Positions 3,742 to 56,665 of a DNA stretch of 64,000 nt are shown in pieces (the stretch's first letter is position 1; every line of letters begins with the position of its first letter). A model generated the notes under the pieces. The model had not been told where the DNA came from. It ran no database searches and saw only the letters and a list, made by a program, of their open reading frames with translations. Origin of the DNA: Parcubacteria group bacterium Greene0714_7 (GTDB taxonomy: Bacteria; Patescibacteriota; Minisyncoccia; Phycocordibacterales; Phycocordibacteraceae); the NCBI GenBank assembly GCA_007378985.1, contig VMHB01000005.1, positions 9,235 through 73,234 on the forward strand, read 5' to 3'. The translations under genes and the position numbers were made by a program.

Positions 3742-5961
3742 TCACTTAGCAACCTTAACTGCCTCTTCCAATTTTACTGATAATACTTTTGATACGCCAT
3801 CGTTCCCCATAGTGATGCCGTAGAGGATTCCAGCGCGCGACATGGTTTCTCGGTTATGCGTAATTATGGCGAGCTGTGATTTTTTTGAAAGCGCCTCAAC
3901 CATGTCACCGTACCTGCGACTATTAGACTCATCGAGCGCGGCGTCGGTTTCATCCAGCATAAGAAATGGCGGAGGATTAACTGATGACATAGCAAAAATA
4001 AGTGCAATTGATGTGAGGGTTCTCTCACCACCTGAAAGCATTACCAAACTCTTCACACGCTTGCGGGGAATCGAGAGCGAGATATCAATACCTGAAGATG
4101 TTTCTTCCCTAAACATCTCTTCTCCGAGAAGAGATGTCGGGCGAACATCCCCCTGGGATGTTTTAGCCTCGCTATCTTCATCAAAATCGTTTTTTACTTT
4201 CCGGACTGATTCTTCAACACGCACAAGTGATGCTGAGCCTCCATCAAACATCAAAGCAAAGAGTTTAGTAAATTCGGAATTGATAGCATCAATTCCCTCT
4301 TTGAAACGAACACTGAGCTCAGCTTCAAGGTTTTGAATAAGACCTTTTAAAGAAACCGAGGCAGTGCCGAGATCGGCAAGTTCATGCTCTAGAAATGCCT
4401 CTCGCTCGCTCACTTCTTTATGCTCTTTCAGCACATCAGCACTTGCACCTGTGCCCATTTCCTCAAGACGAATCTTAGTCTTTTCAAGTTGACGCTTTTC
4501 TTCCACCTGTTCATCGCGTGACGCCGACAAAGAGACATCGGCATCAGGATACAAAAGAACCTCTCTACCAATAAGAGTACCCGCCTCCAGTAAATCTCGT
4601 TCAAATTCTGCCTTTTCAAGTCCGAGTCGACCTATTTCACCTTCTAGAATATTTATACGATGACGCACTTCGCGCTCTGCGGTAGCAAGACTAAACAATG
4701 CTCGCTCTTTTTCTCGCTCGTTCGTTCGAGCGCTATCAAGCTCTGCTCTTATTTTTTCCAACGACTCTCCGAGTTCCGTTTCTCTTTGTATGCATTCTTT
4801 TTCAGTATTCACCGCAAGCTCGCGCTCACGCTTCAAAAGTGCGACATCATTCGAATCTTCTGCCGTTTGTGCAGTAAGTGCTTTAAATCTACTGAAGTAC
4901 TCACGGAAAAATGAAAGCACTTCCTGAATAGGAGTATTTGAAAATCCACTAAGCGCTCTCTCACCCTCTTCAACTAAACGAGACACTTCTCCGAGAGGAA
5001 TACTTGCATTACTCATCGTGCGCTCCATTGCTTCAATTTGACCTTCAAGGCGTGAAGCTTTGCGAAGCGCATCAGCTCGCTTACTTCTTGCATCATCAAG
5101 TGCACCTGATATTTCAAGAATTGCTCCACCACGCTTATCTTCTTCAGAATGTGCGAGCGCTTGTTTTGCTTCAGCTACTTTACTCGCAATGTCTGCAAGC
5201 TCTTTTCTCTTCTCTAACAGTTCACTTTCAAACCCTCCACCTGCAGTTTTTAAATATGCCTCTTCTCTTTTAAAATATGATTGAAAACGAACAACTGCGG
5301 ACGCACGCAAGACTTCGGCCTTTTCGACTTTCTCAACTTGTTTTTTGAGGAAGCGTAAGTGTGGAGCAATTTCCCTTCGGAGTGCCTCTACTTGTCGCAT
5401 GTTCTCCTCGGTTTTTTCGAGCTTGCGTGAAGACTCTTCAAGTTTGTATTGATATGCCTTTAAGCCGAGTGCATCCTCCAGCATTTCCCTTCGCTCCTTC
5501 GGAGGTGCGGAAAGTATTTTGTCGGCTTCACCTTGCGAAATGATGTGATGCCCAGTGGCACCAATATTTGCTCCTGCAAGTAATTCCAGAATGTCTTTGA
5601 GACGCACCTGACTACCGTTTAATCGATATTCATTTACACCATCCCGATGCACTATTCGCTCAATAACTACCTCATCAAAGTCTAAATTCAAAAAGCGCGA
5701 TGCATTGTCAAAGGTTATAGCAACAGATGCACGGTTAGCTCGAGGCGTTGTGGCGGAGCCATTCCAAATCAAGTCTTCTCCGCGTTTCCCACGCATAGAC
5801 TTCATAGACTGTTCACCCAATACAAAACGAACCGCCTCGGCAACGTTAGATTTACCCGAGCCGTTCGGACCCACTATGGCAACAACCGATGTATTGAAAT
5901 CAAAGCTGGTCTTTTTTGCAAAAGACTTAAAGCCTGCAATGTCGAGACGAGTAAGATGCAT
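3742..5961 (-). CDS. smc: chromosome segregation ATPase SMC, compact 739 aa form
   Basis: N-term FKSF...GPNGSGKSN Walker A; C-term LSGGE...LDE signature/Walker B; long coiled-coil middle; shorter than canonical ~1180 aa. Confidence 0.75.
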   Translation of the reverse strand: MHLTRLDIAGFKSFAKKTSFDFNTSVVAIVGPNGSGKSNVAEAVRFVLGEQSMKSMRGKRGEDLIWNGSATTPRANRASVAITFDNASRFLNLDFDEVVIERIVHRDGVNEYRLNGSQVRLKDILELLAGANIGATGHHIISQGEADKILSAPPKERREMLEDALGLKAYQYKLEESSRKLEKTEENMRQVEALRREIAPHLRFLKKQVEKVEKAEVLRASAVVRFQSYFKREEAYLKTAGGGFESELLEKRKELADIASKVAEAKQALAHSEEDKRGGAILEISGALDDARSKRADALRKASRLEGQIEAMERTMSNASIPLGEVSRLVEEGERALSGFSNTPIQEVLSFFREYFSRFKALTAQTAEDSNDVALLKRERELAVNTEKECIQRETELGESLEKIRAELDSARTNEREKERALFSLATAEREVRHRINILEGEIGRLGLEKAEFERDLLEAGTLIGREVLLYPDADVSLSASRDEQVEEKRQLEKTKIRLEEMGTGASADVLKEHKEVSEREAFLEHELADLGTASVSLKGLIQNLEAELSVRFKEGIDAINSEFTKLFALMFDGGSASLVRVEESVRKVKNDFDEDSEAKTSQGDVRPTSLLGEEMFREETSSGIDISLSIPRKRVKSLVMLSGGERTLTSIALIFAMSSVNPPPFLMLDETDAALDESNSRRYGDMVEALSKKSQLAIITHNRETMSRAGILYGITMGNDGVSKVLSVKLEEAVKVAK

Positions 5962-6182
5962 TCAGAGATTATAACAGCCGAAAGCTTCTAGGTTCTAGGT
6001 GCTAGGTGCTAGCTTAAATTAGAATCACAAATACACATGTTTAAAGTTTTCTATATATCAGTTAACTGATATATAGAAATACGGCCTACAAAAATAGTAT
6101 TTCTACTTTGTGCTAAACCCGGGTTTAGCACACAAGACCTAAAGGCTTAAAAAGCTAGAAACTAACAGCTGGAACCTGACAC

Positions 6183-8437: not shown

Positions 8438-8827
8438 CTAGCGCATTGCGTCAGTGAATTCTTTGAGGACACTCTCCGTCGCCTCTGCGAGCGCATGCAC
8501 CAACTCTTCTTGAGCAAATTTAGTACGAAAGAATCCTGCGACAGCATTCAAATCTGGCTCAACACCCGGCTCAAAGCCATTACCCATCTCTGCGAGTTCT
8601 TTTTTATCTTCATCTGAAAGCCTCTCGCCAAGTCGAACAAGTAGGTCAGCAGCAATAGCTTCCATCAAATTTTGCTCTACCTCTTTTCTCTCTTCGTCAG
8701 GCACTCGAAGCTCATTCAGCGTTTCGTCAACAGAGCTATAAAGTGCAACCACACGCTCAGCAAGCTCAGGATCGACAGGAAGGTCGGGAGTTTGGTTCCC
8801 TTGCAAATTCTGTGGTTCATCAGTCAT
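8438..8827 (-). CDS. hypothetical acidic protein (129 aa)
   Basis: Clean ORF in operon position between rnhB and rpmF; no recognisable motif. Confidence 0.35.
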   Translation of the reverse strand: MTDEPQNLQGNQTPDLPVDPELAERVVALYSSVDETLNELRVPDEERKEVEQNLMEAIAADLLVRLGERLSDEDKKELAEMGNGFEPGVEPDLNAVAGFFRTKFAQEELVHALAEATESVLKEFTDAMR

Positions 8828-9426
8828 GAGGCAATAGTACCATCGAGGATTCTTGAAAGAAAACTCATCCGGTGGATGGGTGAAGGTCCGTACTCTTTAA
8901 TAGCTTGAATGTGTGAAGCAGTTCCATACCCTTTATGTTTTTCAAAACCATATTGAGGATGTTCAAGCGCTAACTTCACCATCAAACGATCTCGAGTAAC
9001 CTTCGCAACAATTGAAGCGAGCATTATGGCAGGAACGAGTCCGTCGCCACCAATGATTGTTTCCTGCTCATACTCGGTAGGAGCCTTGAGTGAACCGTCA
9101 AGATATATTTTTCCTGAGTTCGCTTCGGGCATGAGTTTCCTCACGCCCTGCTCGAGCGCATGTGAAATGGCATATGAAATTCCCTTTGTGTCTATAACCG
9201 TCGAGTTCGAGAGGCATGCTACTGCTCGAAGATTTCCCTTCTGCATTTCCTCTTGCACGAGCAGAAACAATGCTTCCCGTTTTTTTTCTGAAAGTTTTTT
9301 AGAGTCATTCAATCCTGGAAATGCATCAAGTAAATCAAAACTACTCTCCACCGCAATAACACCAACAGAAACAGGTCCCGCCAATGGCCCCCTACCGGCT
9401 TCATCAATTCCAAGAATGTATGGCAT
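8824..9426 (-). CDS. rnhB: ribonuclease HII
   Basis: 200 aa; ILGIDEAGRGPLAGPV N-terminal catalytic motif. Confidence 0.9.
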   Translation of the reverse strand: MPYILGIDEAGRGPLAGPVSVGVIAVESSFDLLDAFPGLNDSKKLSEKKREALFLLVQEEMQKGNLRAVACLSNSTVIDTKGISYAISHALEQGVRKLMPEANSGKIYLDGSLKAPTEYEQETIIGGDGLVPAIMLASIVAKVTRDRLMVKLALEHPQYGFEKHKGYGTASHIQAIKEYGPSPIHRMSFLSRILDGTIAS

Positions 9427-12728: not shown

Positions 12729-14474
12729 ATGCCTCAGGAACTTGAATACAAGCGCCATACTCTTGCCCATCTTATGGCAGCAGCGATTATGAATATCTGG
12801 CCTGACGCTAAGCGTACTATTGGCCCTGCTATAGATGACGGATTTTATTTTGATTTTGAATTTAGAGCCCCCCTTTCTGAAAAGGATTTCACTAAGATTG
12901 AGAAGGAGATGCGCAAACTCTTGCCGAGCTGGAAAGCCTTTGAACGATCTGAACTTACTCGAGACGAAGCAAAAAAAGAATATCCCGGAAACCCTTACAA
13001 ACATGAACTGATAGACGAGTTTACTGCCGACGGCTCTAAGGTAAGTTTCTACAAGTCAGGCGAATACTCTGACCTCTGCCGTGGAGGACATGTTGAAAAC
13101 CCAAGTATTGATATCAAACCTGATTCTTTCAAGCTCGATCGCATTGCAGGAGCATATTGGCGTGGCGATGAGAAAAATCCAATGTTAACTCGCATCTACG
13201 CACTCGCATTCGACACAAAAGAAGACCTCGAAGCGTATTTGGTACGACGTGAAGAAGCTAAAAAGCGTGACCATCGAAAAATTGCACGAGAGCAAGGACT
13301 TCTCGTTTTTTCTGATCTTGTTGGTTCAGGCATGCCACTCTTCACACCAAAAGGAAATATCATCCGATCCGAGATAATCAATCTTTCGCGCGAACTTAAT
13401 GATGAACTCGGATTTGGTGAAGTGCATACACCAAATATGAATAAGGGTGAGCTATTCAAAATTTCTGGCCACTATGACAAATACAAAGAGGACATGCTCC
13501 AAGTTGAGTCTCAGTATGTTGAAGACGAGATGTTCTTAAAGCCAATGAACTGCCCACAGCACACGCAAATTTATGCCGCGCAGCCTCGCAGTTACCGTGA
13601 CCTTCCTACTCGCTACAGCGACTTTGCTGTTCTCTATCGTGACGAACGCCCTGGTGAGCTTTCAGGGTTAACACGACTTCGTGCATTCTCACAAGACGAT
13701 GGACACATCTTTTGTCGAGAAGACCAAGTAGAAGAAGAAATATCTAATGTACTCAATGCGATCCAAAAGATTTTAAAAATTTACCAGATTGATTACTGGA
13801 TGCGCCTTTCGCTCCGCGACCCAGCTAAAAAAGAAAAGTACCTCGGGGGTGATGAGGTATGGGAAAAATCTGAGCCAATAATGCGCACACTCTTACAGAA
13901 AAAAGAAATTAACTTCAAAGAAGCTGTAGGAGACGCTGCGTTTTATGGCCCAAAGATAGACATTATGGCAGTTGATGCAATTGGCCGTGAGTGGCAGATT
14001 TCAACAATTCAACTCGACTTCAACATGCCTGGGCGCTTTGAGCTCGCCTACATGGACAAAGATGGAGTAGAAAAAACTCCCGTCATGATTCACCGAGCAC
14101 TCATAGGCTCTCCTGACAGATTCATGGGAGTACTTATTGAGCACTATGCTGGGGCATTTCCTCTCTGGCTTTCACCCATACAAGTCAAAGTGCTTCCTAT
14201 TTCTGAAAAACACAATGAGTACGGACACAAAGTTCTTGCTGAGCTAAAGACTGCAGGAATTCGAGCTGAAATTGACGATGCCAATGAGTCGCTCGGCAAA
14301 AAAATCCGCAATGCAAAAAAAGAAAAAACTCCCTACCTTTTTGTGGTGGGAGATAAAGAAGTTGAGGAAGGCACTGTGTCTGTAGAAAACCGCACAACCT
14401 CAGGAGGTACAAAGCCACTCAAAGAAGTTATTGCTTTCCTCTCACAACAAATCTCTTCTCGCGCTAGTGACTAA
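12729..14474 (+). CDS. thrS: threonyl-tRNA synthetase (lacks N-terminal TGS extension)
   Basis: 581 aa; class II aaRS core with HRKIAREQGLLVFSD, MNCPQH, anticodon-binding C-term. Confidence 0.9.
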   Translation: MPQELEYKRHTLAHLMAAAIMNIWPDAKRTIGPAIDDGFYFDFEFRAPLSEKDFTKIEKEMRKLLPSWKAFERSELTRDEAKKEYPGNPYKHELIDEFTADGSKVSFYKSGEYSDLCRGGHVENPSIDIKPDSFKLDRIAGAYWRGDEKNPMLTRIYALAFDTKEDLEAYLVRREEAKKRDHRKIAREQGLLVFSDLVGSGMPLFTPKGNIIRSEIINLSRELNDELGFGEVHTPNMNKGELFKISGHYDKYKEDMLQVESQYVEDEMFLKPMNCPQHTQIYAAQPRSYRDLPTRYSDFAVLYRDERPGELSGLTRLRAFSQDDGHIFCREDQVEEEISNVLNAIQKILKIYQIDYWMRLSLRDPAKKEKYLGGDEVWEKSEPIMRTLLQKKEINFKEAVGDAAFYGPKIDIMAVDAIGREWQISTIQLDFNMPGRFELAYMDKDGVEKTPVMIHRALIGSPDRFMGVLIEHYAGAFPLWLSPIQVKVLPISEKHNEYGHKVLAELKTAGIRAEIDDANESLGKKIRNAKKEKTPYLFVVGDKEVEEGTVSVENRTTSGGTKPLKEVIAFLSQQISSRASD

Positions 14475-14536
14475 CCAGAGTCTCACCTGGGTCTCATTTA
14501 GAATGTAACGCGGGAGACTAAAAAATTATCATGTGA

Positions 14537-14564
14537 CTCCATATACGATATATCGTATATGGAG
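14537..14564 (+). repeat. 28-nt perfect palindrome ctccATATACGATATATCGTATATggag (copy 1 of 3)
   Basis: Read directly; the same 20-nt core recurs at ~35251 and ~35691. Confidence 0.7.
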
Positions 14565-14726
14565 TGAGCTACTGTGTGCTGTTGCCATATACGAACCTAT
14601 CGCAACGATAATTCTCTGTATGATATATCATACAGAGAATTCATTTCACTATAGTGAAAATCCCCCACATGGGAGACACACGATGTCTGCCATGACTATC
14701 CCTGTGCACCGGAGGTTGCACAGGGA

Positions 14727-14897: not shown

Positions 14898-15165
14898 ATT
14901 GTTTTTATGTATTTATACTAAACCCAGATGTAGCACAAAATCTTAATGGGTTTTAGAAAGGTAAATTTCTTCCTGTTTCTTTTCTGAATTCATCTCTTGC
15001 CTTCCGTTGATCATTAGTAGAGAGTCGATAAAACGGATCTGCTAAATCTGTATCTCTGAGAGCACCCTCAAGCACTAGATCAAGAATCTCTAAGAAATAA
15101 GTCCAAACACTTATTATTTTCTCTCCCTTATGTATCTGCCCCATAAAGAATAATTATCTTTTTTA

Positions 15166-23973: not shown

Positions 23974-24024
23974 CATGCTCTACCCACTGCTTCCAAAAAC
24001 AATCACAACAGTGAATACTGACGG

Positions 24025-24060
24025 TATAGTATAAATTAACGATCGTTAACTTATACTATA
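24025..24060 (+). repeat. 36-nt near-perfect palindrome TATAGTATAAATTAACGATCGTTAACTTATACTATA (family copy 1)
   Basis: One mismatch; a perfect 52-nt version lies at 31546..31597. Confidence 0.65.
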
Positions 24061-24185
24061 CAGCCTTAAATAACATAAAAAGAAAAATCCAGTGACAATA
24101 GCGCAACCTAGCAATTAAAAACCCTCCTTAATCAGAGAGTTTTTAATTTCTGTATTGATGTTAAAAAGCTAAACGCTAGCCCCTG

Positions 24186-31436: not shown

Positions 31437-31447
31437 ATAGAGAAGAG

Positions 31448-31490
31448 TATACCCCCACACCTTTTAATTCTGAAAAGGTGTGGGGGTATA
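31448..31490 (-). promoter_or_regulatory. perfect 18-bp-stem hairpin 12 nt upstream of the pheS start codon; identical element upstream of the next gene
   Basis: tatacccccacacctttt / aattctg / aaaaggtgtgggggtata, then tatactcttctctatATG. Confidence 0.55.
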
Positions 31491-31545
31491 CCCCGTGAGG
31501 TAAATCATTTAAACACTACTCGCCTCCTAGGGTTTACAGTACCAA

Positions 31546-31597
31546 AAAGACTGTATAGTATAATTTAACGATCGTTAAATTATACTATACAGTCTTT
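31546..31597 (+). repeat. 52-nt perfect palindrome AAAGACTGTATAGTATAATTTAACGAT|CGTTAAATTATACTATACAGTCTTT
   Basis: Verified by reverse-complementing half-sites; family member at 24025. Confidence 0.7.
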
Positions 31598-32501: not shown

Positions 32502-32512
32502 GTAGAGAATAG

Positions 32513-32555
32513 TATACCCCCACACCTTTTCAGAATGAAAAGGTGTGGGGGTATA
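32513..32555 (-). promoter_or_regulatory. second copy of the 18-bp-stem hairpin, 12 nt upstream of the PEGA gene start
   Basis: Same stems, loop cagaatg; followed by tatactattctctacATG. Confidence 0.55.
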
Positions 32556-32567
32556 CCCCGTGAGATG

Positions 32568-35118: not shown

Positions 35119-35250
35119 GCAAGCATTATACCTATTTTAGTCTGAAATACAGACTCCACTTTATTATAATATTTCTGAACATTTTCTTCCTCAAAACTTC
35201 CCCTTACCCTCCCGATTACAAATAGCACTAAACAATATAAGAATGTTAAT

Positions 35251-35270
35251 ATATACGATATATCGTATAT
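35251..35270 (+). promoter_or_regulatory. 20-nt perfect palindrome ATATACGATATATCGTATAT overlapping the start codon of the TrpR/YerC-like gene
   Basis: Read directly; last nucleotides overlap the ATG at 35269. Confidence 0.6.
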
Positions 35271-35688
35271 GCCACATATATCCAAGCATCGACTGACACA
35301 AGAAACAAAGCAAGAACTTGAAGACCGGGTATTTGCATTCCTTTTCGATACACAAATGAGAGATCGTAAGAAGATATTCCGTGAACTTTTCACTCGAACG
35401 GAACGCACCATGATTGCAAAACGACTCACATTAATCTTTCTTATCTCACAAGAACTCCCGCCATACAGCATTAGTCGTGTTCTCAAGATGAGCCCATCTT
35501 CCGTTGCTCGTTTTCAAAAAGCCTTGAACAAGGGCGAATACGCTGCCACTTCATTATGGCTGAAGCCAAAAGGTATACGAGGGCAATTTCTATCTTTCTT
35601 CGACGATGTTGCTGATGTGCTTTTCAGTGGCAAGCGCAAATCAATAGCGCAGATTCTTAAAGATAATGAAGCGAGGGGTACATTCTAA
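35269..35688 (+). CDS. TrpR/YerC-like helix-turn-helix DNA-binding protein
   Basis: 139 aa; TERTMIAKRLTLIFLISQELPPYSISRVLKMSPSSVARFQKAL HTH resembling the Trp-repressor-like YerC/YecD family. Confidence 0.55.
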   Translation: MPHISKHRLTQETKQELEDRVFAFLFDTQMRDRKKIFRELFTRTERTMIAKRLTLIFLISQELPPYSISRVLKMSPSSVARFQKALNKGEYAATSLWLKPKGIRGQFLSFFDDVADVLFSGKRKSIAQILKDNEARGTF

Positions 35689-35719
35689 ATATATACGATA
35701 TATCGTATATATTTAGAAT
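35682..35719 (+). promoter_or_regulatory. 38-nt perfect palindrome ATTCTAAATATATACGATATATCGTATATATTTAGAAT spanning the stop codon of the TrpR-like gene
   Basis: Verified palindrome; third copy of the ATATACGATATATCGTATAT core. Confidence 0.65.
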
Positions 35720-35757
35720 ACGAGAGAAACGGTACATCAAGTCACTGAAATAAAAAA

Positions 35758-35825
35758 GGGCTACCTCCCGGATTCGAGCCCCAGTAGTAGACGCTGACGT
35801 CACTACGGGGCAGGCTAAGGACCTT
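35758..35825 (-). other. tRNA-like remnant (T-loop GGCTCGAATCC and variable-arm-like hairpin, no pairable acceptor stem)
   Basis: ggggctcgaatccgggaggtagccc resembles a tRNA 3' half; no complementary 5' acceptor strand found. Confidence 0.2.
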
Positions 35826-35846
35826 CTATCTTATTTTTCTACTGAG

Positions 35847-48264: not shown

Positions 48265-48270
48265 CACATT

Positions 48271-48298
48271 CCTATATATCAGTTAACTGATATATAGG
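48271..48298 (+). repeat. 28-nt perfect palindrome CCTATATATCAGTTAACTGATATATAGG between convergent tal and tkt genes (copy 2; copy 1 at 6049..6078)
   Basis: Read directly; AT-rich, so more likely a protein-binding or REP-like site than an intrinsic terminator. Confidence 0.65.
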
Positions 48299-48320
48299 AA
48301 ACGCATCGGATTTAAAACAG

Positions 48321-52602: not shown

Positions 52603-52640
52603 CCCGTGATTTTAACACGCTTAGTTTTCTCATCCCCACA

Positions 52641-53395
52641 CAATGTTCGACTTCGTAAGTCGAACATTGTAGAATAAAGTAAAGAATTATGGATCTGTAC
52701 CATGCACTTAATCGTGGAGTCGAAAAGAAAGATATTTTTCTTGATACGCAAGACTATGCACGTTTTGTGCACGATTTGTATGTATTCAATGATATTCGCC
52801 CAGCAGAAAATACGCGTCGCAACCTACAACCTCAAATGTTCGACTTACGAAGTCGAACATTTGAGAAGAGGGAGAAATTAGTGGAGCTGCACGGTTGGTG
52901 CTTAATGCGGAACCACTATCACCTGCTTCTATCAGAAAAAAGTGAAGGCGGTATTGCCAAATTCCTTCGAAAATTAAATATAGGGTATGCAAAATACTTC
53001 AATGAAAAATACGAACGGAATGGGTATGTATTTAGCGGACGGACGAAAAAAGTACTGATAGAAAATGACGCTCAATTCAACTATATCCTTCACTACATTC
53101 ATTTGAATCCACTTGATTATCTGAAAGGTGCTGAAGAGTGGAGAATACGGAGTAAAGGTGGTATCAAAAACCTGAAGGATGCGCTAGCGTACCTTAAATC
53201 CTACCGCTGGAGTAGTTACCTTGATTACATTGGGGAACAAAACTTCCCTTCTATACTTACCACTTCTCTTTTTGGAGAGCCATCAGGAAGTTACGAAAAA
53301 ACTATAGAGAAGTATCTGAAAGGTGCCGAACATACTGAGCTCAAATCAAACTCAATCGCGTTAGAATGATGTGGGACCTACGAGGTCCCACATAT
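52641..53395 (+). mobile_element. RAYT-like unit: Y1 (IS200-like) transposase gene flanked by two related 25-nt palindromes (ATGTTCGACTTCGTAAGTCGAACAT upstream, ATGTGGGACCTACGAGGTCCCACAT downstream)
   Basis: Both palindromes share ATGTnnGACn...nGTCnnACAT; inverted-orientation copies occur inside the RAYT CDS (~52836) and inside pheT (~29113). Confidence 0.6.
52689..53369 (+). CDS. IS200/IS605-family Y1 (HUH) transposase, REP-associated tyrosine transposase-like
   Basis: 226 aa; YHALNRGVEKKDIF...LMRNHYHLLL (HUH motif)...NYILHYIHLNP (candidate catalytic Tyr helix). Confidence 0.7.
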   Translation: MDLYHALNRGVEKKDIFLDTQDYARFVHDLYVFNDIRPAENTRRNLQPQMFDLRSRTFEKREKLVELHGWCLMRNHYHLLLSEKSEGGIAKFLRKLNIGYAKYFNEKYERNGYVFSGRTKKVLIENDAQFNYILHYIHLNPLDYLKGAEEWRIRSKGGIKNLKDALAYLKSYRWSSYLDYIGEQNFPSILTTSLFGEPSGSYEKTIEKYLKGAEHTELKSNSIALE

Positions 53396-54917: not shown

Positions 54918-56665
54918 TCATGTGCCGGAGGGAGTGGATGTTGAGGAGGGTGTAGGGTTTAGCGTATCGGGTATAGGGGAAGCGGAGGGAGGAGTTGGTT
55001 CGGAAGTGCTTCCAGCAGACTCAACGATCACGGTGCGGGTGACGTTTGCGGTATTCCCCGCAACATCCACCGCTCGGTAGGTCACTGTGTGTGTGCCGGG
55101 AGCGCTCGTATCAAGATTCACTGTCAAGGTTTCAACGCCATCGAGTAGTGTAGTCATGCCGATGTTTTGGTCTACGTTGTCGGTGACCAACGCGCCAAGA
55201 TCAGCGTATGAATTACCTACCTGAATTGTTGCTGGATTGTTTCCATTAATAAGGATGGTGGGAGCTTGGGAGTCACCCTGAGGAAGGTTAGAGGTGCTAG
55301 GTTCTAGGTTAGAGGTGGAAGAAAATGTGGGAGTGGAGGTTGCGAGGTCAACGACGAAGTAGTCAAAAGATGCATCATTTTGAAGCGGTGCGTTCAGTGC
55401 AACAGTGAAACCACCGTCAGTCTTTTCACTCACATACCACCCGCTTCCAGTATTTGAATTGAAGGTGACAAACACTTTTGAATGTTCGGCAACGAGAATA
55501 TTTCGTACCAAGACACTCGTCTCCCCCGCTGGGATTGTTGCGGAGCCTGCGGGAGCGTCACCGGTAGCTCCTGGGGTTGCCACGAAGTGGTTTGCAGCAA
55601 GCGTGCTCGCAGTAACCGTACCATTTGCGATACTTACACTTTGACTCGTGAGTGCTGTTTCAAGTGCGCCCGCAATATTTCCAACTGCACCAGATACCGC
55701 ACCTGAGACACCACTTCCATTTTCCAAAGCAACAACGCGCGCGGTGAGTTCGGAAACTAGAGCAACGAGTGCATCAAATTTATTTGCCAAGCTCTGCAAA
55801 CCGCCCACCGCCACCGAAAGCAACTTGTACAAATCAATGCCGTTGCCTTTTGTGGAGCGAACAATCTGCGGAGCCTCTTCTGCAATGAGTCCCACTCTTC
55901 CTGCGCTTGCTGGTTCGTTTTTGTAGTGATACTCGGCAACCATGAGTCCGCGAACAGTTTCAAGGAAACTGTTCGCGGTAGTGGTGCTGATGTGTTGAAT
56001 GTCTGCCTTTGAATCCCCTTCTGAAAGATTCACGAATCCTGTTGCAATGATGTCGCCACCCACCGCAAGACGGTAGTTAGAACCTCCGGTGTTTGTTGGA
56101 GTAGTGGTGCCAATGCCCATGGTGCCGGTGGTCGCATCAATGGCGAAGTCCTGTGGCGCCAACCAGTACTGTGATGACACGAAAGTTTCTACGGTACCTG
56201 CAGTTGTTGAGGCTGTGTAATTTTCAAGTGCAATACCAATAGTCTGACCAGAATGGAGTGCTTTCACTGCAACGCCTGGTGTTGTGGTTGAAAGCATGAG
56301 TCTATCGCCAATTGCGATTGGGCCGTTTTCGATTGAAACTTTCACCGGTACACGACCAGAGAGATTAATCCTGGATCGGTTGAAACGACACCAAGTGGAA
56401 TAGAGCCGGGAGTCGCTGTGGTGATAGTCGTTCCGCTCGTCAAATCAAGTGAAGCAATAGTGCCTGCATTAATACTGACATCTGATGTTGGATAATTTTC
56501 TGCAACGTCGTAGGTACCTACAGAAGCGGAGCGGTAGTAGATACTTCCTGCCGTGGTGCCACAAGCAACAGTAGAGCCAGCACCTCCAGAGAAACAGCCA
56601 GCACCAACGACGGTGAAGTTGCTTTTTGGCGAGGTAGTACCCACGCCCACATTGCCGGTTGCCAT
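54918..56665 (-). CDS. tail-fibre-like protein, probably one gene split by a frameshift at ~56345 (ORFs 56342..56665 + 54918..56345), C-terminal Ig-like domain
   Basis: The upstream ORF opens with MATGNVGVGTTSPKSNFTVVG, the GNVG[IV]GTTxP fibre module found in the giant genes downstream; the ORFs abut with a 4-nt overlap in different frames; the CDS holds a 7-bp periodic TAGGT array (~55290..55325) encoding STSNLEPSTSNLP. Confidence 0.4.

What the first reader, a model, noticed from the sequence alone, without database searches (positions are those of the whole stretch)
35251..35719. TrpR/YerC-like HTH gene bracketed by perfect copies of the same AT-rich palindrome, with a third copy 21 kb away
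ATATACGATATATCGTATAT overlaps the start codon at 35269. A 38-nt perfect palindrome with the same core spans the stop codon. A 28-nt version lies at 14537-14564 in a hairpin-dense 250-bp non-coding stretch after thrS. This looks like an autoregulatory operator pair for the encoded repressor with at least one further regulon site. Alternatively the palindrome-bounded unit is a tiny mobile cassette.
Basis: inference. Interest (0 to 1): 0.5.

Follow-up and report, generated by a model that had tools for sequence, protein, structure and literature searches.

The report
Palindrome-bracketed TrpR-like repressor gene
A small DNA-binding protein gene in an uncultivated Parcubacteria genome is flanked on both sides by the perfect palindrome that the protein most likely binds, and the same layout recurs around every related gene examined in other Patescibacteria, which points to an undescribed self-regulating switch in these minimal bacteria.

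Summary
ATATACGATATATCGTATAT occurs exactly three times in the window (0 expected). It overlaps the start codon of a 139-aa TrpR-family gene, spans its stop codon inside a 38-nt perfect palindrome, and lies 66 nt after thrS inside a 30-nt palindrome.

Comparative data support an operator for the encoded protein:
- The family is large (577 clusters). Where a source names the organism, it is Patescibacteria.
- 21 of 22 distinct genes examined are bracketed by the same kind of palindrome.
- Three lineages with an altered recognition helix carry a correspondingly altered core in both brackets.
- In most members the upstream copy fills the spacer of a TTGTTA-N17-TATTAT promoter that ends 6-7 nt before the ATG. 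This implies a leaderless, self-repressed gene.

Arms outside the core vary but stay complementary, and are longer at gene 3' ends. Rare mismatches are G·U on the sense strand, so a hairpin role is superimposed.

The window's third copy sits where the gene lies in other lineages (thrS-X-gyrB). It is more likely a relic than a regulon site.

Solo copies are few per genome, turn over between close relatives, and occur in promoter, convergent and even coding contexts. This is a new variant of a known kind. Binding is untested.

The parts
35251..35270 (.). Upstream bracket: a 20-nt perfect palindrome whose last two bases are the AT of the start codon. Proposed operator.
   Evidence: The equivalent copy lies 1-71 nt (mostly 1-14) before the ATG in 17 of 18 other family members with upstream sequence available.
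35269..35688 (+). TrpR-family HTH protein gene, 139 aa. Invariant N-terminus MPH[IV]S; recognition helix SPSSVAR.
   Evidence: PF01371 at 27.2 bits against cut-off 27. A family profile hits PDB 3KOR, 3FRW, 3G1C and E. coli TrpR. AlphaFold2 model pLDDT 80.8; top Foldseek hits are all TrpR or TrpR-like. 100% identical to a protein of Parcubacteria group bacterium Greene0714_7.
35682..35719 (.). Downstream bracket: a 38-nt perfect palindrome with the same core, containing the TAA stop codon. Proposed second operator plus 3' RNA hairpin.
   Evidence: RNA hairpin -18.6 kcal/mol, z = -6.0. No T-tract follows, and the terminator scan does not call it. Downstream arms are longer than upstream arms across the family: median 18 vs 12, paired Wilcoxon p = 0.004.
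14536..14565 (.). Third copy: a 30-nt perfect palindrome that starts 62 nt after the thrS stop, in a convergent non-coding gap. Probable relic of the gene's position in other lineages, and a 3' hairpin for thrS.
   Evidence: thrS is followed by this palindrome in L001, L015 and L078, and by the TrpR-like gene in L001, L070, L078 and probably L077.
14610..14641 (.). 32-nt perfect palindrome with a symmetric variant core (ATGATATATCAT), 75 nt from the third copy.
   Evidence: The spacing resembles L078, where a long-arm copy after thrS lies 68 nt from the short-arm promoter copy. Whether the protein binds it is unknown.
35142..35170 (+). Best sigma70-like promoter candidate upstream of the gene in the window (CTGAAA-17-TATAAT). 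If used, the palindrome lies about 90 nt into the leader, at the start codon.
   Evidence: Consensus scan only, 10 of 12 matches. The number of hits in the region is not above shuffles. Weak.
12729..14474 (+). thrS, for context. In other lineages the TrpR-like gene follows directly.
   Evidence: Pfam. 57.6% identical to L070 thrS, which precedes a TrpR-like gene.

Best explanation
The gene encodes a TrpR-family helix-turn-helix repressor that binds, presumably as a dimer, the palindromic core (T)ATACGATATATCGTAT(A).

The copy at the 5' end of its own gene is its autoregulatory operator. In most family members this copy occupies the spacer and -10 region of a TTGTTA-N16-18-TAnnAT promoter that fires 6-7 nt before the ATG. 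The mRNA is therefore leaderless, and a bound protein would exclude RNA polymerase.

The copy at the 3' end is the same operator set at the top of a longer perfect stem. It probably acts as the transcript's 3' hairpin. Depending on context, it may also be a second operator for the next gene's promoter (fba, uvrA) or for cooperative or looped repression.

The third copy in the window marks the thrS-adjacent site where the gene lies in other lineages. It now probably serves only as a 3' hairpin or orphan binding site.

Shown: the bracketing architecture, core/recognition-helix covariation, promoter overlap in relatives, and pairing covariation of the arms. Inferred: binding, repression, dimer stoichiometry, the hairpin's function and the effector.
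For: 1. Family and fold. Pfam PF01371 passes its cut-off. The family profile hits TrpR-like structures 3KOR, 3FRW and 3G1C at E = 7e-5 to 6e-4, and E. coli TrpR. Top Foldseek hits are all TrpR or TrpR-like, with target-normalised TM of 0.56-0.73. TrpR-family proteins bind 20-bp palindromes and often autoregulate (PMC9413887).

2. Association. Of 62 unique exact-20-mer sites in public genome and metagenome contigs, 20 abut a homologue of this one gene, 10 at the start and 10 at the stop. All 9 additional family members fetched by protein identity also carry a palindrome at the 3' end, and 8 of the 9 also a perfect one upstream; in L072 the upstream copy is degenerate.

3. Specificity covariation.
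- SPATVAR goes with TTTATCATATATGATAAA (L070).
- SPTTINK goes with TATACAATATATTGTATA (L079).
- SVSTVTR goes with TACCGATATATCGGTA (L081).
Each variant core is present in both brackets. SPSTV, SPSSV and SQSTA helices keep ACGATATATCGT.

4. Promoter. In 12 of 20 genes the best sigma70-like match within 110 nt has the palindrome in its spacer, and its -10 ends 5-9 nt before the ATG.

5. Low copy number. There are 1-5 exact copies per genome or large contig.

6. Hairpin layer. The arm covariation score is 0.355 against 0.156 in shuffles (0 of 500 reach it) and 0.13-0.15 when the pairing is slid. Downstream arms are longer. All five imperfect copies downstream of a TrpR-like stop codon (L001, L051, L077, and two in L080) are G·U on the sense strand.
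Against: - In the window and its close relatives the ATG is fused to the palindrome, and no good promoter overlaps it. The key mechanistic argument is therefore borrowed from other lineages.
- A dimeric protein does not explain why individual sites are perfectly symmetric, or why arms outside the core co-vary.
- About a quarter of solo sites are where no promoter can be. Some lie in convergent gaps (window 14541, L012, L015, L025). Others are in frame inside coding sequence: miaA and a methyltransferase in GW2011_GWA2_40_14.
- Solo sites differ between genomes that are 87% identical, which is unlike a conserved regulon.
- The 3' hairpins lack T-tracts.
- The Foldseek E-values are weak (0.2-1.5).
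- No binding data exist.
Confidence: 0.6

Rival explanations
1. Recombination or mobile module. The two identical palindromes are sites at which the gene can be excised and re-inserted, or deleted, in the manner of cassettes or dif-type modules. Solo palindromes are footprints or landing sites, and the protein is the element's own site-binding factor.
For: - The gene occupies at least 7 different contexts across the family: thrS-X-gyrB, pfkB<>X-fba, smc-X, uvrB..X-uvrA, a tRNA cluster, mscL<>X, and purH<>X..tRNA-Thr.
- The window keeps a solo copy exactly where the gene lies elsewhere.
- A relative that is 87% identical has a 240-nt insert with two copies where two window genes overlap, and three tandem copies where the window has one.
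- Sites occur in all intergenic types.
Against: - No recombinase, transposase or nuclease motif is in the protein or reliably next to it.
- Only one gene copy was found in the window.
- No viral-contig hits.
- Homology between solo sites stops at the palindrome.
- Each context is conserved within its subclade, as expected for ordinary rearrangement.
- The intragenic copies arose without any length change, so not by insertion.
Confidence: 0.12
2. Chromosome-level binding sites, like parS, matS or Noc sites. The protein marks a handful of perfect palindromes for nucleoid organisation, segregation or roadblocking rather than for promoter control. The copies at its own gene are incidental or autoregulatory.
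For: - The core is perfectly conserved across very divergent genomes, where the proteins are only 25-30% identical.
- Sites are perfect or absent: the window has 3 exact copies and none with 1-3 mismatches.
- In-frame sites inside miaA and a methyltransferase were created by substitutions, not insertion.
- Some sites lie in convergent gaps.
Against: - No GC-skew switch lies near the sites.
- The most constant sites are the two at the gene itself, and the upstream one is promoter-embedded.
- Solo sites are not conserved between close relatives.
- The family is TrpR-like, whose known members are metabolite-sensing repressors.
Confidence: 0.1
3. The palindromes act purely at the RNA level. They are 3'-end or 5'-end hairpins that stabilise or terminate transcripts, or a hairpin that the protein binds in its own mRNA. 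On this reading there is no DNA operator.
For: - Base-pair covariation of the arms.
- G·U on the sense strand in every imperfect copy that follows a TrpR-like stop codon.
- Stable predicted hairpins of -18 to -20 kcal/mol.
- Many copies begin within 2-40 nt after a stop codon.
- In the window the start codon is buried in the stem.
Against: - It does not explain why the 12-18-nt core sequence, not just its pairing, is invariant across very divergent Patescibacteria lineages, or why it co-varies with the HTH recognition helix.
- Copies also lie in divergent promoter gaps (L016, L062, pfkB<>X).
- The upstream copies would lie in the promoter, upstream of the start of a leaderless transcript, and so not in the RNA.
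- No T-tract follows the hairpins.
- TrpR-family proteins are double-stranded-DNA binders.
Confidence: 0.08

Closest known systems
E. coli TrpR and its operators
   Same: Same Pfam family and fold. It is a small all-helical HTH protein whose operator is an 18-20-bp palindrome overlapping the core promoter, including that of its own gene (established knowledge of TrpR; PMC9413887).
   Different: - The Patescibacteria protein is 133-145 aa and has an extra C-terminal helical region of about 45 aa (lower pLDDT).
- It has an invariant MPH[IV]S N-terminus.
- The operator sequence is unrelated to TGTACTAGTTAACTAGTAC.
- A second copy always lies at the gene's 3' end.
- Sites are perfect palindromes with co-varying extensions.
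- The effector is unknown.
HisR (YerC/YecD), the TrpR-family histidine repressor of Firmicutes
   Same: A TrpR-family protein with a 20-bp palindromic motif. It is autoregulated in about half of genomes, and its motif differs by lineage (PMC9413887). The best PDB sequence hits belong to this group: 3KOR, 3FRW and 3G1C.
   Different: - It fails the YerC/YecD model (16.4 bits against a cut-off of 42.2).
- The HisR motif is cacTTTAnnnnnnTAAAgtg.
- No his genes are nearby.
- HisR has no bracketing or hairpin extension.
REP elements with their RAYT gene (REPtron)
   Same: A gene flanked on both sides by copies of a palindromic repeat that its product recognises. Further copies are dispersed in intergenic regions, often just after stop codons, where they act as mRNA 3' hairpins. 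Copy number varies between relatives.
   Different: - The protein has no HUH/Y1 transposase domain.
- There are only 1-5 exact copies per genome or large contig, rather than hundreds.
- The repeats here are perfect palindromes with a conserved core and variable arms.
ParB/parS
   Same: An HTH protein with a perfect palindrome that stays identical across very divergent lineages. There are few copies per genome, some inside coding sequences and one next to the protein's own gene.
   Different: - A different protein family, with no ParB N-terminal CTPase domain.
- No clustering at an origin could be shown.
- The promoter-embedded position points to transcriptional control.
CIRCE/HrcA
   Same: An inverted repeat conserved across phyla. 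It is both the DNA operator of a repressor and an RNA stem-loop that affects the transcript (established knowledge). Three genomes here carry the palindrome between grpE and dnaK (L003, L014, L032).
   Different: - An unrelated repressor family.
- CIRCE has a 9-nt spacer.
- CIRCE does not bracket hrcA.

Membership tests
TrpR family (Pfam PF01371, Trp_repressor) | Sequence match to the family model at or above the curated cut-off | tested here: met
   27.2 bits against cut-off 27.0, E = 4.2e-6, residues 32-91. This is borderline, but most homologues carry a precomputed PF01371 hit, and the family profile hits 3KOR, 3FRW, 3G1C and E. coli TrpR in the PDB.
TrpR family (Pfam PF01371, Trp_repressor) | TrpR-like all-helical fold with the HTH in helices D and E | tested here: met
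   AlphaFold2 model with pLDDT 80.8, eight helices. The Foldseek PDB ranking is led by TrpR and TrpR-like chains (16 of the top 20, including the first seven), with target-normalised TM of 0.56-0.73. E-values are only 0.2-1.5.
TrpR family (Pfam PF01371, Trp_repressor) | Binds a roughly 20-bp palindromic operator as a dimer | not testable with these tools
   Only indirect evidence: the palindromes flank the gene, and the core co-varies with the recognition helix in three lineages.
TrpR family (Pfam PF01371, Trp_repressor) | An amino-acid co-repressor controls binding | not testable with these tools
   No ligand prediction is possible. The residues TrpR uses for tryptophan were not examined.
YerC/YecD = HisR subfamily (TIGR02531) | Match to the equivalog model at its cut-off | tested here: not met
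   16.4 bits against cut-off 42.2. The protein is 133-145 aa, whereas HisR is under 100 aa (PMC9413887).
YerC/YecD = HisR subfamily (TIGR02531) | Operator consensus cacTTTAnnnnnnTAAAgtg near his or yuiF genes | tested here: not met
   The core here is ACGATATATCGT. The neighbours are purH, tRNA-Thr, thrS, pfkB, fba and others, and no his genes.
REP/RAYT (REPtron) | The flanked gene encodes an HUH Y1 transposase-like protein | tested here: not met
   Only HTH families hit in Pfam. No PHROG hit.
REP/RAYT (REPtron) | Tens to hundreds of repeat copies per genome | tested here: not met
   There are 1-5 exact copies per genome or large contig (7 in 522 kb over two contigs of one metagenome), and few near-exact ones. 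The full source genome could not be scanned.
Intrinsic (Rho-independent) terminator | G+C-rich stem followed by a T-tract | tested here: not met
   The terminator scan finds nothing at 35682-35719 or 14536-14565. The stems are A+T-rich and are followed by ACGAGAG and GAGCTAC.
Known RNA families (Rfam 15) | Match at the gathering threshold | tested here: not met
   Only tRNA-Thr is found in the window. The relaxed searches around both loci give only chance-level miRNA and snoRNA hits.

The most novel reading that the evidence does not exclude
The palindrome and its TrpR-like protein form a gene-boundary module widespread in Patescibacteria, in which one short DNA element does three jobs at once. 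It is a bidirectional leaderless promoter core (TATTAT on both strands). It is the operator of a dedicated repressor. Once transcribed, it is the 3' hairpin of the upstream gene. The module propagates or is renewed by template-switch or recombination at the palindromes. That would explain the perfect symmetry, the co-varying arms, the tandem arrays, the intragenic copies and the relocation of the self-bracketed gene. On this reading the system sits between a regulon and a selfish repeat, with the repressor gene as its 'REPtron-like' master copy.
Probability: 0.15. Interest if true: 0.7.

Novelty: new variant of a known kind. Interest (0 to 1): 0.5.

Why it matters
Patescibacteria (CPR) have tiny genomes with very few transcription factors, and almost nothing is known experimentally about their gene regulation. 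Here a family of 577 protein clusters (named members are Patescibacteria) comes with a ready-made, sharply defined binding site. It also comes with a natural specificity-swap series (three helix/core variants) and a conserved promoter architecture implying leaderless transcription. That makes a protein-DNA recognition code, and the first autoregulatory circuit of this group, directly testable in vitro without cultivating the organisms. The overlay of sequence conservation (core) and pairing covariation (arms) in one element is also a clean case for separating DNA-level from RNA-level constraint. If it turns out to be only an ordinary autorepressor, the value is mainly annotational: 'hypothetical protein' or 'Trp operon repressor' becomes a defined Patescibacteria regulator with a known motif.

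Tried and rejected
- Known RNA. Rfam at the gathering threshold and relaxed searches around both loci found nothing but tRNA-Thr.
- Canonical terminators. Neither palindrome is called, and no T-tracts follow.
- Phage or mobile origin. There were 0 viral-contig hits for the 20-mer and no PHROG hit for the protein.
- Origin or terminus marker. The GC skew is monotonic across the window.
- Pseudogene of the TrpR-like gene or of the hydrolase in the 690-nt gap after thrS. tblastn gave no hit. A six-frame HMM search gave only a 3.3-bit match interrupted by stops, on the strand opposite a 63-aa ORF. I treat this as noise.
- A larger repeat unit (MITE-like) around solo copies. Homology between sites ends at the palindrome. 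The 94-nt match between L031 and L059 is explained by two palindromes in register.
- Promoter overlapping the window's own upstream copy. No convincing -35/-10 pair was found. The best candidates are 100 nt upstream on the + strand, or on the - strand pointing towards purH.
- L068 as evidence for duplication of the cassette. The two inverted copies differ by many 1-nt indels, so an assembly artefact is likely.
- Literature. The motif was not found in any relevant paper. The only prior mention found is 'trp repressor' genes heading tRNA-Trp/TrpRS operons in CPR.
- Not done: a whole-genome count in the source genome. Only the 64-kb window of a 76-kb contig was available, and the genome-collection scan did not return that assembly.

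Full report
**1. The observation**

The 20-mer ATATACGATATATCGTATAT occurs exactly three times in the window, at 14541, 35251 and 35691. No additional site exists within three mismatches, and none is expected by chance.

- The first copy at the gene ends in the AT of the ATG of ORF 35269-35688 (+, 139 aa).
- The second copy is the centre of a 38-nt perfect palindrome (35682-35719) that contains the TAA stop.
- The third copy is the centre of a 30-nt perfect palindrome (14536-14565) that starts 62 nt after thrS (the 20-mer core 66 nt after it).
- A fourth element at 14610-14641 is a 32-nt perfect palindrome with a symmetric variant of the core (ATGATATATCAT). GATATATC occurs nowhere else in the window.
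- The stretch after thrS is strongly structured, with z = -9.

The window as a whole has ten perfect palindromes with arms of at least 8 nt, against about one in shuffles. Palindromes are therefore a habit of this genome, but this family is distinct from the others.

**2. The protein**

- It passes the Pfam Trp_repressor cut-off narrowly (27.2 against 27.0 bits).
- It fails the YerC/YecD equivalog (16.4 against 42.2 bits).
- It is 100% identical to a hypothetical protein of Parcubacteria group bacterium Greene0714_7.
- A profile built from ten homologues finds 577 protein clusters. Few carry any name; where a source names the organism it is Patescibacteria, and most are 133-145 aa and mostly unannotated.
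- The family has an invariant N-terminus MPH[IV]S and an HTH of the form ...IS..L.VSPSTV.R.
- The family profile hits the TrpR-like structures 3KOR, 3FRW and 3G1C, and E. coli TrpR.
- An AlphaFold2 model (pLDDT 80.8) retrieves TrpR and TrpR-like chains as its top Foldseek matches. TM scores are moderate and E-values weak.

Membership of the TrpR family is therefore supported. Orthology to HisR/YerC is not.

**3. The palindrome belongs to the gene**

Scanning one genome per species and JGI metagenomes for the exact 20-mer returned 69 loci. No hit came from viral contigs.

After removing duplicates there are 62 unique sites. Ten lie directly before and ten directly after a homologue of this gene, although those homologues are only 25-38% identical to the window protein.

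Nine further family members were fetched by protein identity rather than by the DNA motif. All nine carry a palindrome at the 3' end, and eight also a perfect one upstream; in L072 the upstream copy has decayed to a half-site. In total, 21 of 22 distinct genes have a recognisable copy at both ends.

**4. Core and recognition helix co-vary**

Most members have SPSTV (or SPSSV, SQSTA, SPSTA) in the recognition helix and the core ACGATATATCGT. Three members depart from both, and each variant core is present in both brackets of its gene:

| Protein | Recognition helix | Core |
|---|---|---|
| P0101 | SPATVAR | ATCATATATGAT |
| P0043 | SPTTINK | ACAATATATTGT |
| P0108 | SVSTVTR | CCGATATATCGG |

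This is the strongest available evidence, short of an experiment, that the protein reads the palindrome.

**5. Promoter context**

I aligned the upstream regions on the palindrome centre. TTGTTA (or a near variant) lies immediately 5' of the core, and TATTAT, TATAAT, TACAAT or TATGAT lies at its 3' edge, with a 16-18-nt spacer filled by the core. The -10 element ends 5-9 nt before the ATG. In 12 of 20 genes this is the best sigma70-like match within 110 nt.

The inference is a leaderless mRNA whose promoter is occluded when the operator is occupied, which is classical negative autoregulation as known for TrpR and HisR.

The window and its close relatives are an exception. There the ATG is fused to the palindrome (CGTATATG) and no good promoter overlaps it. 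The best candidates are CTGAAA-17-TATAAT at 35142-35170, or a minus-strand match pointing towards purH. For the window itself the mode of repression is therefore uncertain. It could be a roadblock, occlusion of the start codon, or control of the divergent purH gene.

**6. A hairpin layer on top**

- Individual sites are almost always perfectly symmetric. Of 88 unique sites with the 12-nt core, 83 are perfect over their whole arm, and near-exact variants change both arms together.
- In a centre-anchored alignment of 69 sites, the positions outside the 16-nt core vary freely but stay complementary. The covariation score is 0.355, against 0.156 in shuffles (0 of 500 reach it) and 0.13-0.15 with the pairing slid.
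- A symmetric dimer does not require this symmetry. Either a hairpin or cruciform is selected, or a DNA-level process keeps the arms perfect and lets them grow. Template-switch correction of quasi-palindromes, known from E. coli genetics, is one such process; this is my inference.
- Copies at gene 3' ends have longer arms than promoter copies: median 18 against 12, paired Wilcoxon p = 0.004, n = 18, and the genomes are not all independent.
- All five imperfect copies that follow a TrpR-like stop codon (in L001, L051, L077 and two in L080) are G·U on the sense strand.
- The predicted RNA hairpins are stable, at -18 to -20 kcal/mol. No T-tract follows them, so they are not canonical terminators.

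I read the 3' copies as transcript-end hairpins that carry the operator at their tip. In tandem contexts the same copy lies 7-49 nt before the next gene (fba, uvrA, a tRNA), so there it can also be that gene's operator.

**7. The third copy**

In L001, L070, L078 and probably L077 the TrpR-like gene lies directly after thrS (in L070 after an intervening hydrolase gene) in a conserved block, rnhB-dnaE-thrS-X-gyrB. The window has rnhB, dnaE and thrS in the same order. It then has 690 nt without a gene on that strand, and the TrpR-like gene itself lies 21 kb away between purH and tRNA-Thr.

L078 shows thrS, a long-arm copy, then 68 nt, a short-arm promoter copy, and the gene. The window shows thrS, a 30-nt copy, then 75 nt, the variant copy, and no gene. 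L015 also has a solo copy after thrS.

The third copy is therefore best explained as what remains at the gene's position in other lineages, not as a new regulon member. No pseudogene remnant could be demonstrated.

**8. Solo copies in general**

- Exact copies are few. There are three each in GW2011_GWA2_40_14, a Zambryskiibacteria MAG and the MAG SRP300315_co1_23. There are five on a 206-kb contig and two on a 316-kb contig of the same metagenome.
- Their contexts are mixed:
  - directly before start codons: fmt, bcp, orf102-dnaK, HIT;
  - in divergent gaps: recJ<>HIT, dprA<>serS, pfkB<>X;
  - in convergent gaps: four cases;
  - in frame inside miaA and a methyltransferase, created by substitutions with no change in length.
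- Some positions recur across species: the grpE 3' end in three genomes, and the hydrolase locus in two.
- A syntenic relative with 87% identical DNA differs from the window. It has no exact copy after thrS. It has a 240-nt insert with two copies between rnhB and the next gene, where the window genes overlap. It has three tandem copies 51 nt apart after the TrpR-like gene.
- Homology between solo sites does not extend beyond the palindrome.

This turnover, and the non-promoter positions, are what the simple regulon model does not explain. They keep the recombination-module and chromosome-site rivals alive.

**9. Comparison with known systems**

- The system works like TrpR or HisR autoregulation and belongs to that Pfam family.
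- It differs in length, N-terminus, motif, obligatory bracketing and the hairpin extension.
- It resembles a REPtron in layout but lacks the transposase and the copy number.
- It resembles ParB/parS in how far the perfect site is conserved and in having intragenic copies, but it lacks the protein family and any tie to the origin.
- It resembles CIRCE in serving as both DNA operator and RNA stem-loop.
- I found no description of the motif or the architecture in the searchable literature. The only mention is of 'trp repressor' genes next to tRNA-Trp/TrpRS in CPR.

**10. Verdict**

This is a real, non-random feature. The best explanation is a Patescibacteria-specific TrpR-family autorepressor whose operator also serves as a gene-boundary hairpin (confidence 0.6). 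I rate it a new variant of a known kind, of moderate interest, because it offers a directly testable recognition code and regulatory circuit in a group of bacteria where none has been characterised.

Noticed in passing
window 6048-6079 and 48269-48300; 31546-31597 and 24024-24061; 31447-31491 and 32512-32556; 52640-52670 and 52831-52865; 55948-55978; 6109-6132: There are several other families of perfect or near-perfect palindromes, each with two or more copies, in intergenic gaps. The window has 10 perfect palindromes with arms of at least 8 nt, against about 1 in shuffles. The 52-nt one (GTATAGTATAATTTAACGATCG...) also occurs in the related contig at L041:4306-4353. The GTATACCCCCACACCTTTT hairpins overlap the 5' ends of two minus-strand genes. 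The GTTCGA/TCGAAC and CGAACAG types look like operators of other regulators.
   Followed up: partly
L006:3408, L008:5901, L061:231, L033:1590 (XRE genes); L044:448, L058:865 / L063:7441 (PadR genes): The identical 20-mer sits just upstream of Cro/C1-type HTH genes and PadR-family genes in non-Patescibacteria contigs (Firmicutes MAGs L006 and L008; other unassigned metagenome contigs). In two cases the XRE gene is next to a DUF1273-like gene (identified by eye). The same palindrome therefore seems to be used as an operator-like site by unrelated repressor families.
   Followed up: partly
L004:7105 (= L055:5448) and L017:258 (= L027:4910), Parcubacteria GW2011_GWA2_40_14: The palindrome lies in frame inside miaA (GGTGFYIRYIVYN, where orthologues have FYIQSIVEG, with the same length) and inside a methyltransferase (GFIYDISYIK). 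These copies were made by substitutions, not insertion. No TrpR-like gene was seen near any of the three sites of this genome.
   Followed up: partly
L031:2953-3223 compared with window 8824-8858: A relative with 87% identical DNA has a 240-nt insert carrying two palindromes 59 nt apart, between rnhB and the next gene. In the window these two genes overlap by 4 nt.
   Followed up: yes
L059:697-818; L066:1139 and 1271; L080:1043-1239; L074:9970-10925: Tandem arrays of two to four palindromes, 51-132 nt apart, lie downstream of the TrpR-like gene in some genomes. In L074 the gene sits inside a tRNA cluster together with two other perfect-palindrome families.
   Followed up: partly
window 35720-35846: A hairpin-rich stretch lies between the downstream palindrome and tRNA-Thr, including GCCCCGTAGTGACGTCAGCGTCTACTACTGGGGC. 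It has no Rfam or tRNA hit and cannot be aligned to the close relative.
   Followed up: partly
window 14953-15144 (-): A 63-aa ORF with no Pfam hit lies in the otherwise non-coding 690-nt gap after thrS. The rest of the gap is highly structured (z = -9), with several unrelated hairpins.
   Followed up: partly
L068:3180-3420 and 4355-4595: Two inverted copies, about 90% identical, of the upstream region, the palindrome and the 5' end of a TrpR-like gene. They differ by many single-base indels. They are probably an assembly artefact or decayed duplicates.
   Followed up: partly
Family alignments A1 and A2: The N-terminus MPH[IV]S is invariant across proteins that are otherwise 20-30% identical. 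No function for it (DNA-contacting arm, metal site or processed N-terminal proline) could be assigned.
   Followed up: no
Neighbours of TrpR-like genes and solo sites (window, L001, L015, L041, L049, L052, L053, L062, L070, L074, L078): Translation-related neighbours recur: thrS, serS, proS, tRNA-Thr, tRNA clusters, miaA, def and fmt. An earlier paper (PMC5370408) noted 'trp repressor' genes heading tRNA-Trp/TrpRS operons in CPR. Whether this exceeds what is expected in such small genomes was not tested.
   Followed up: no
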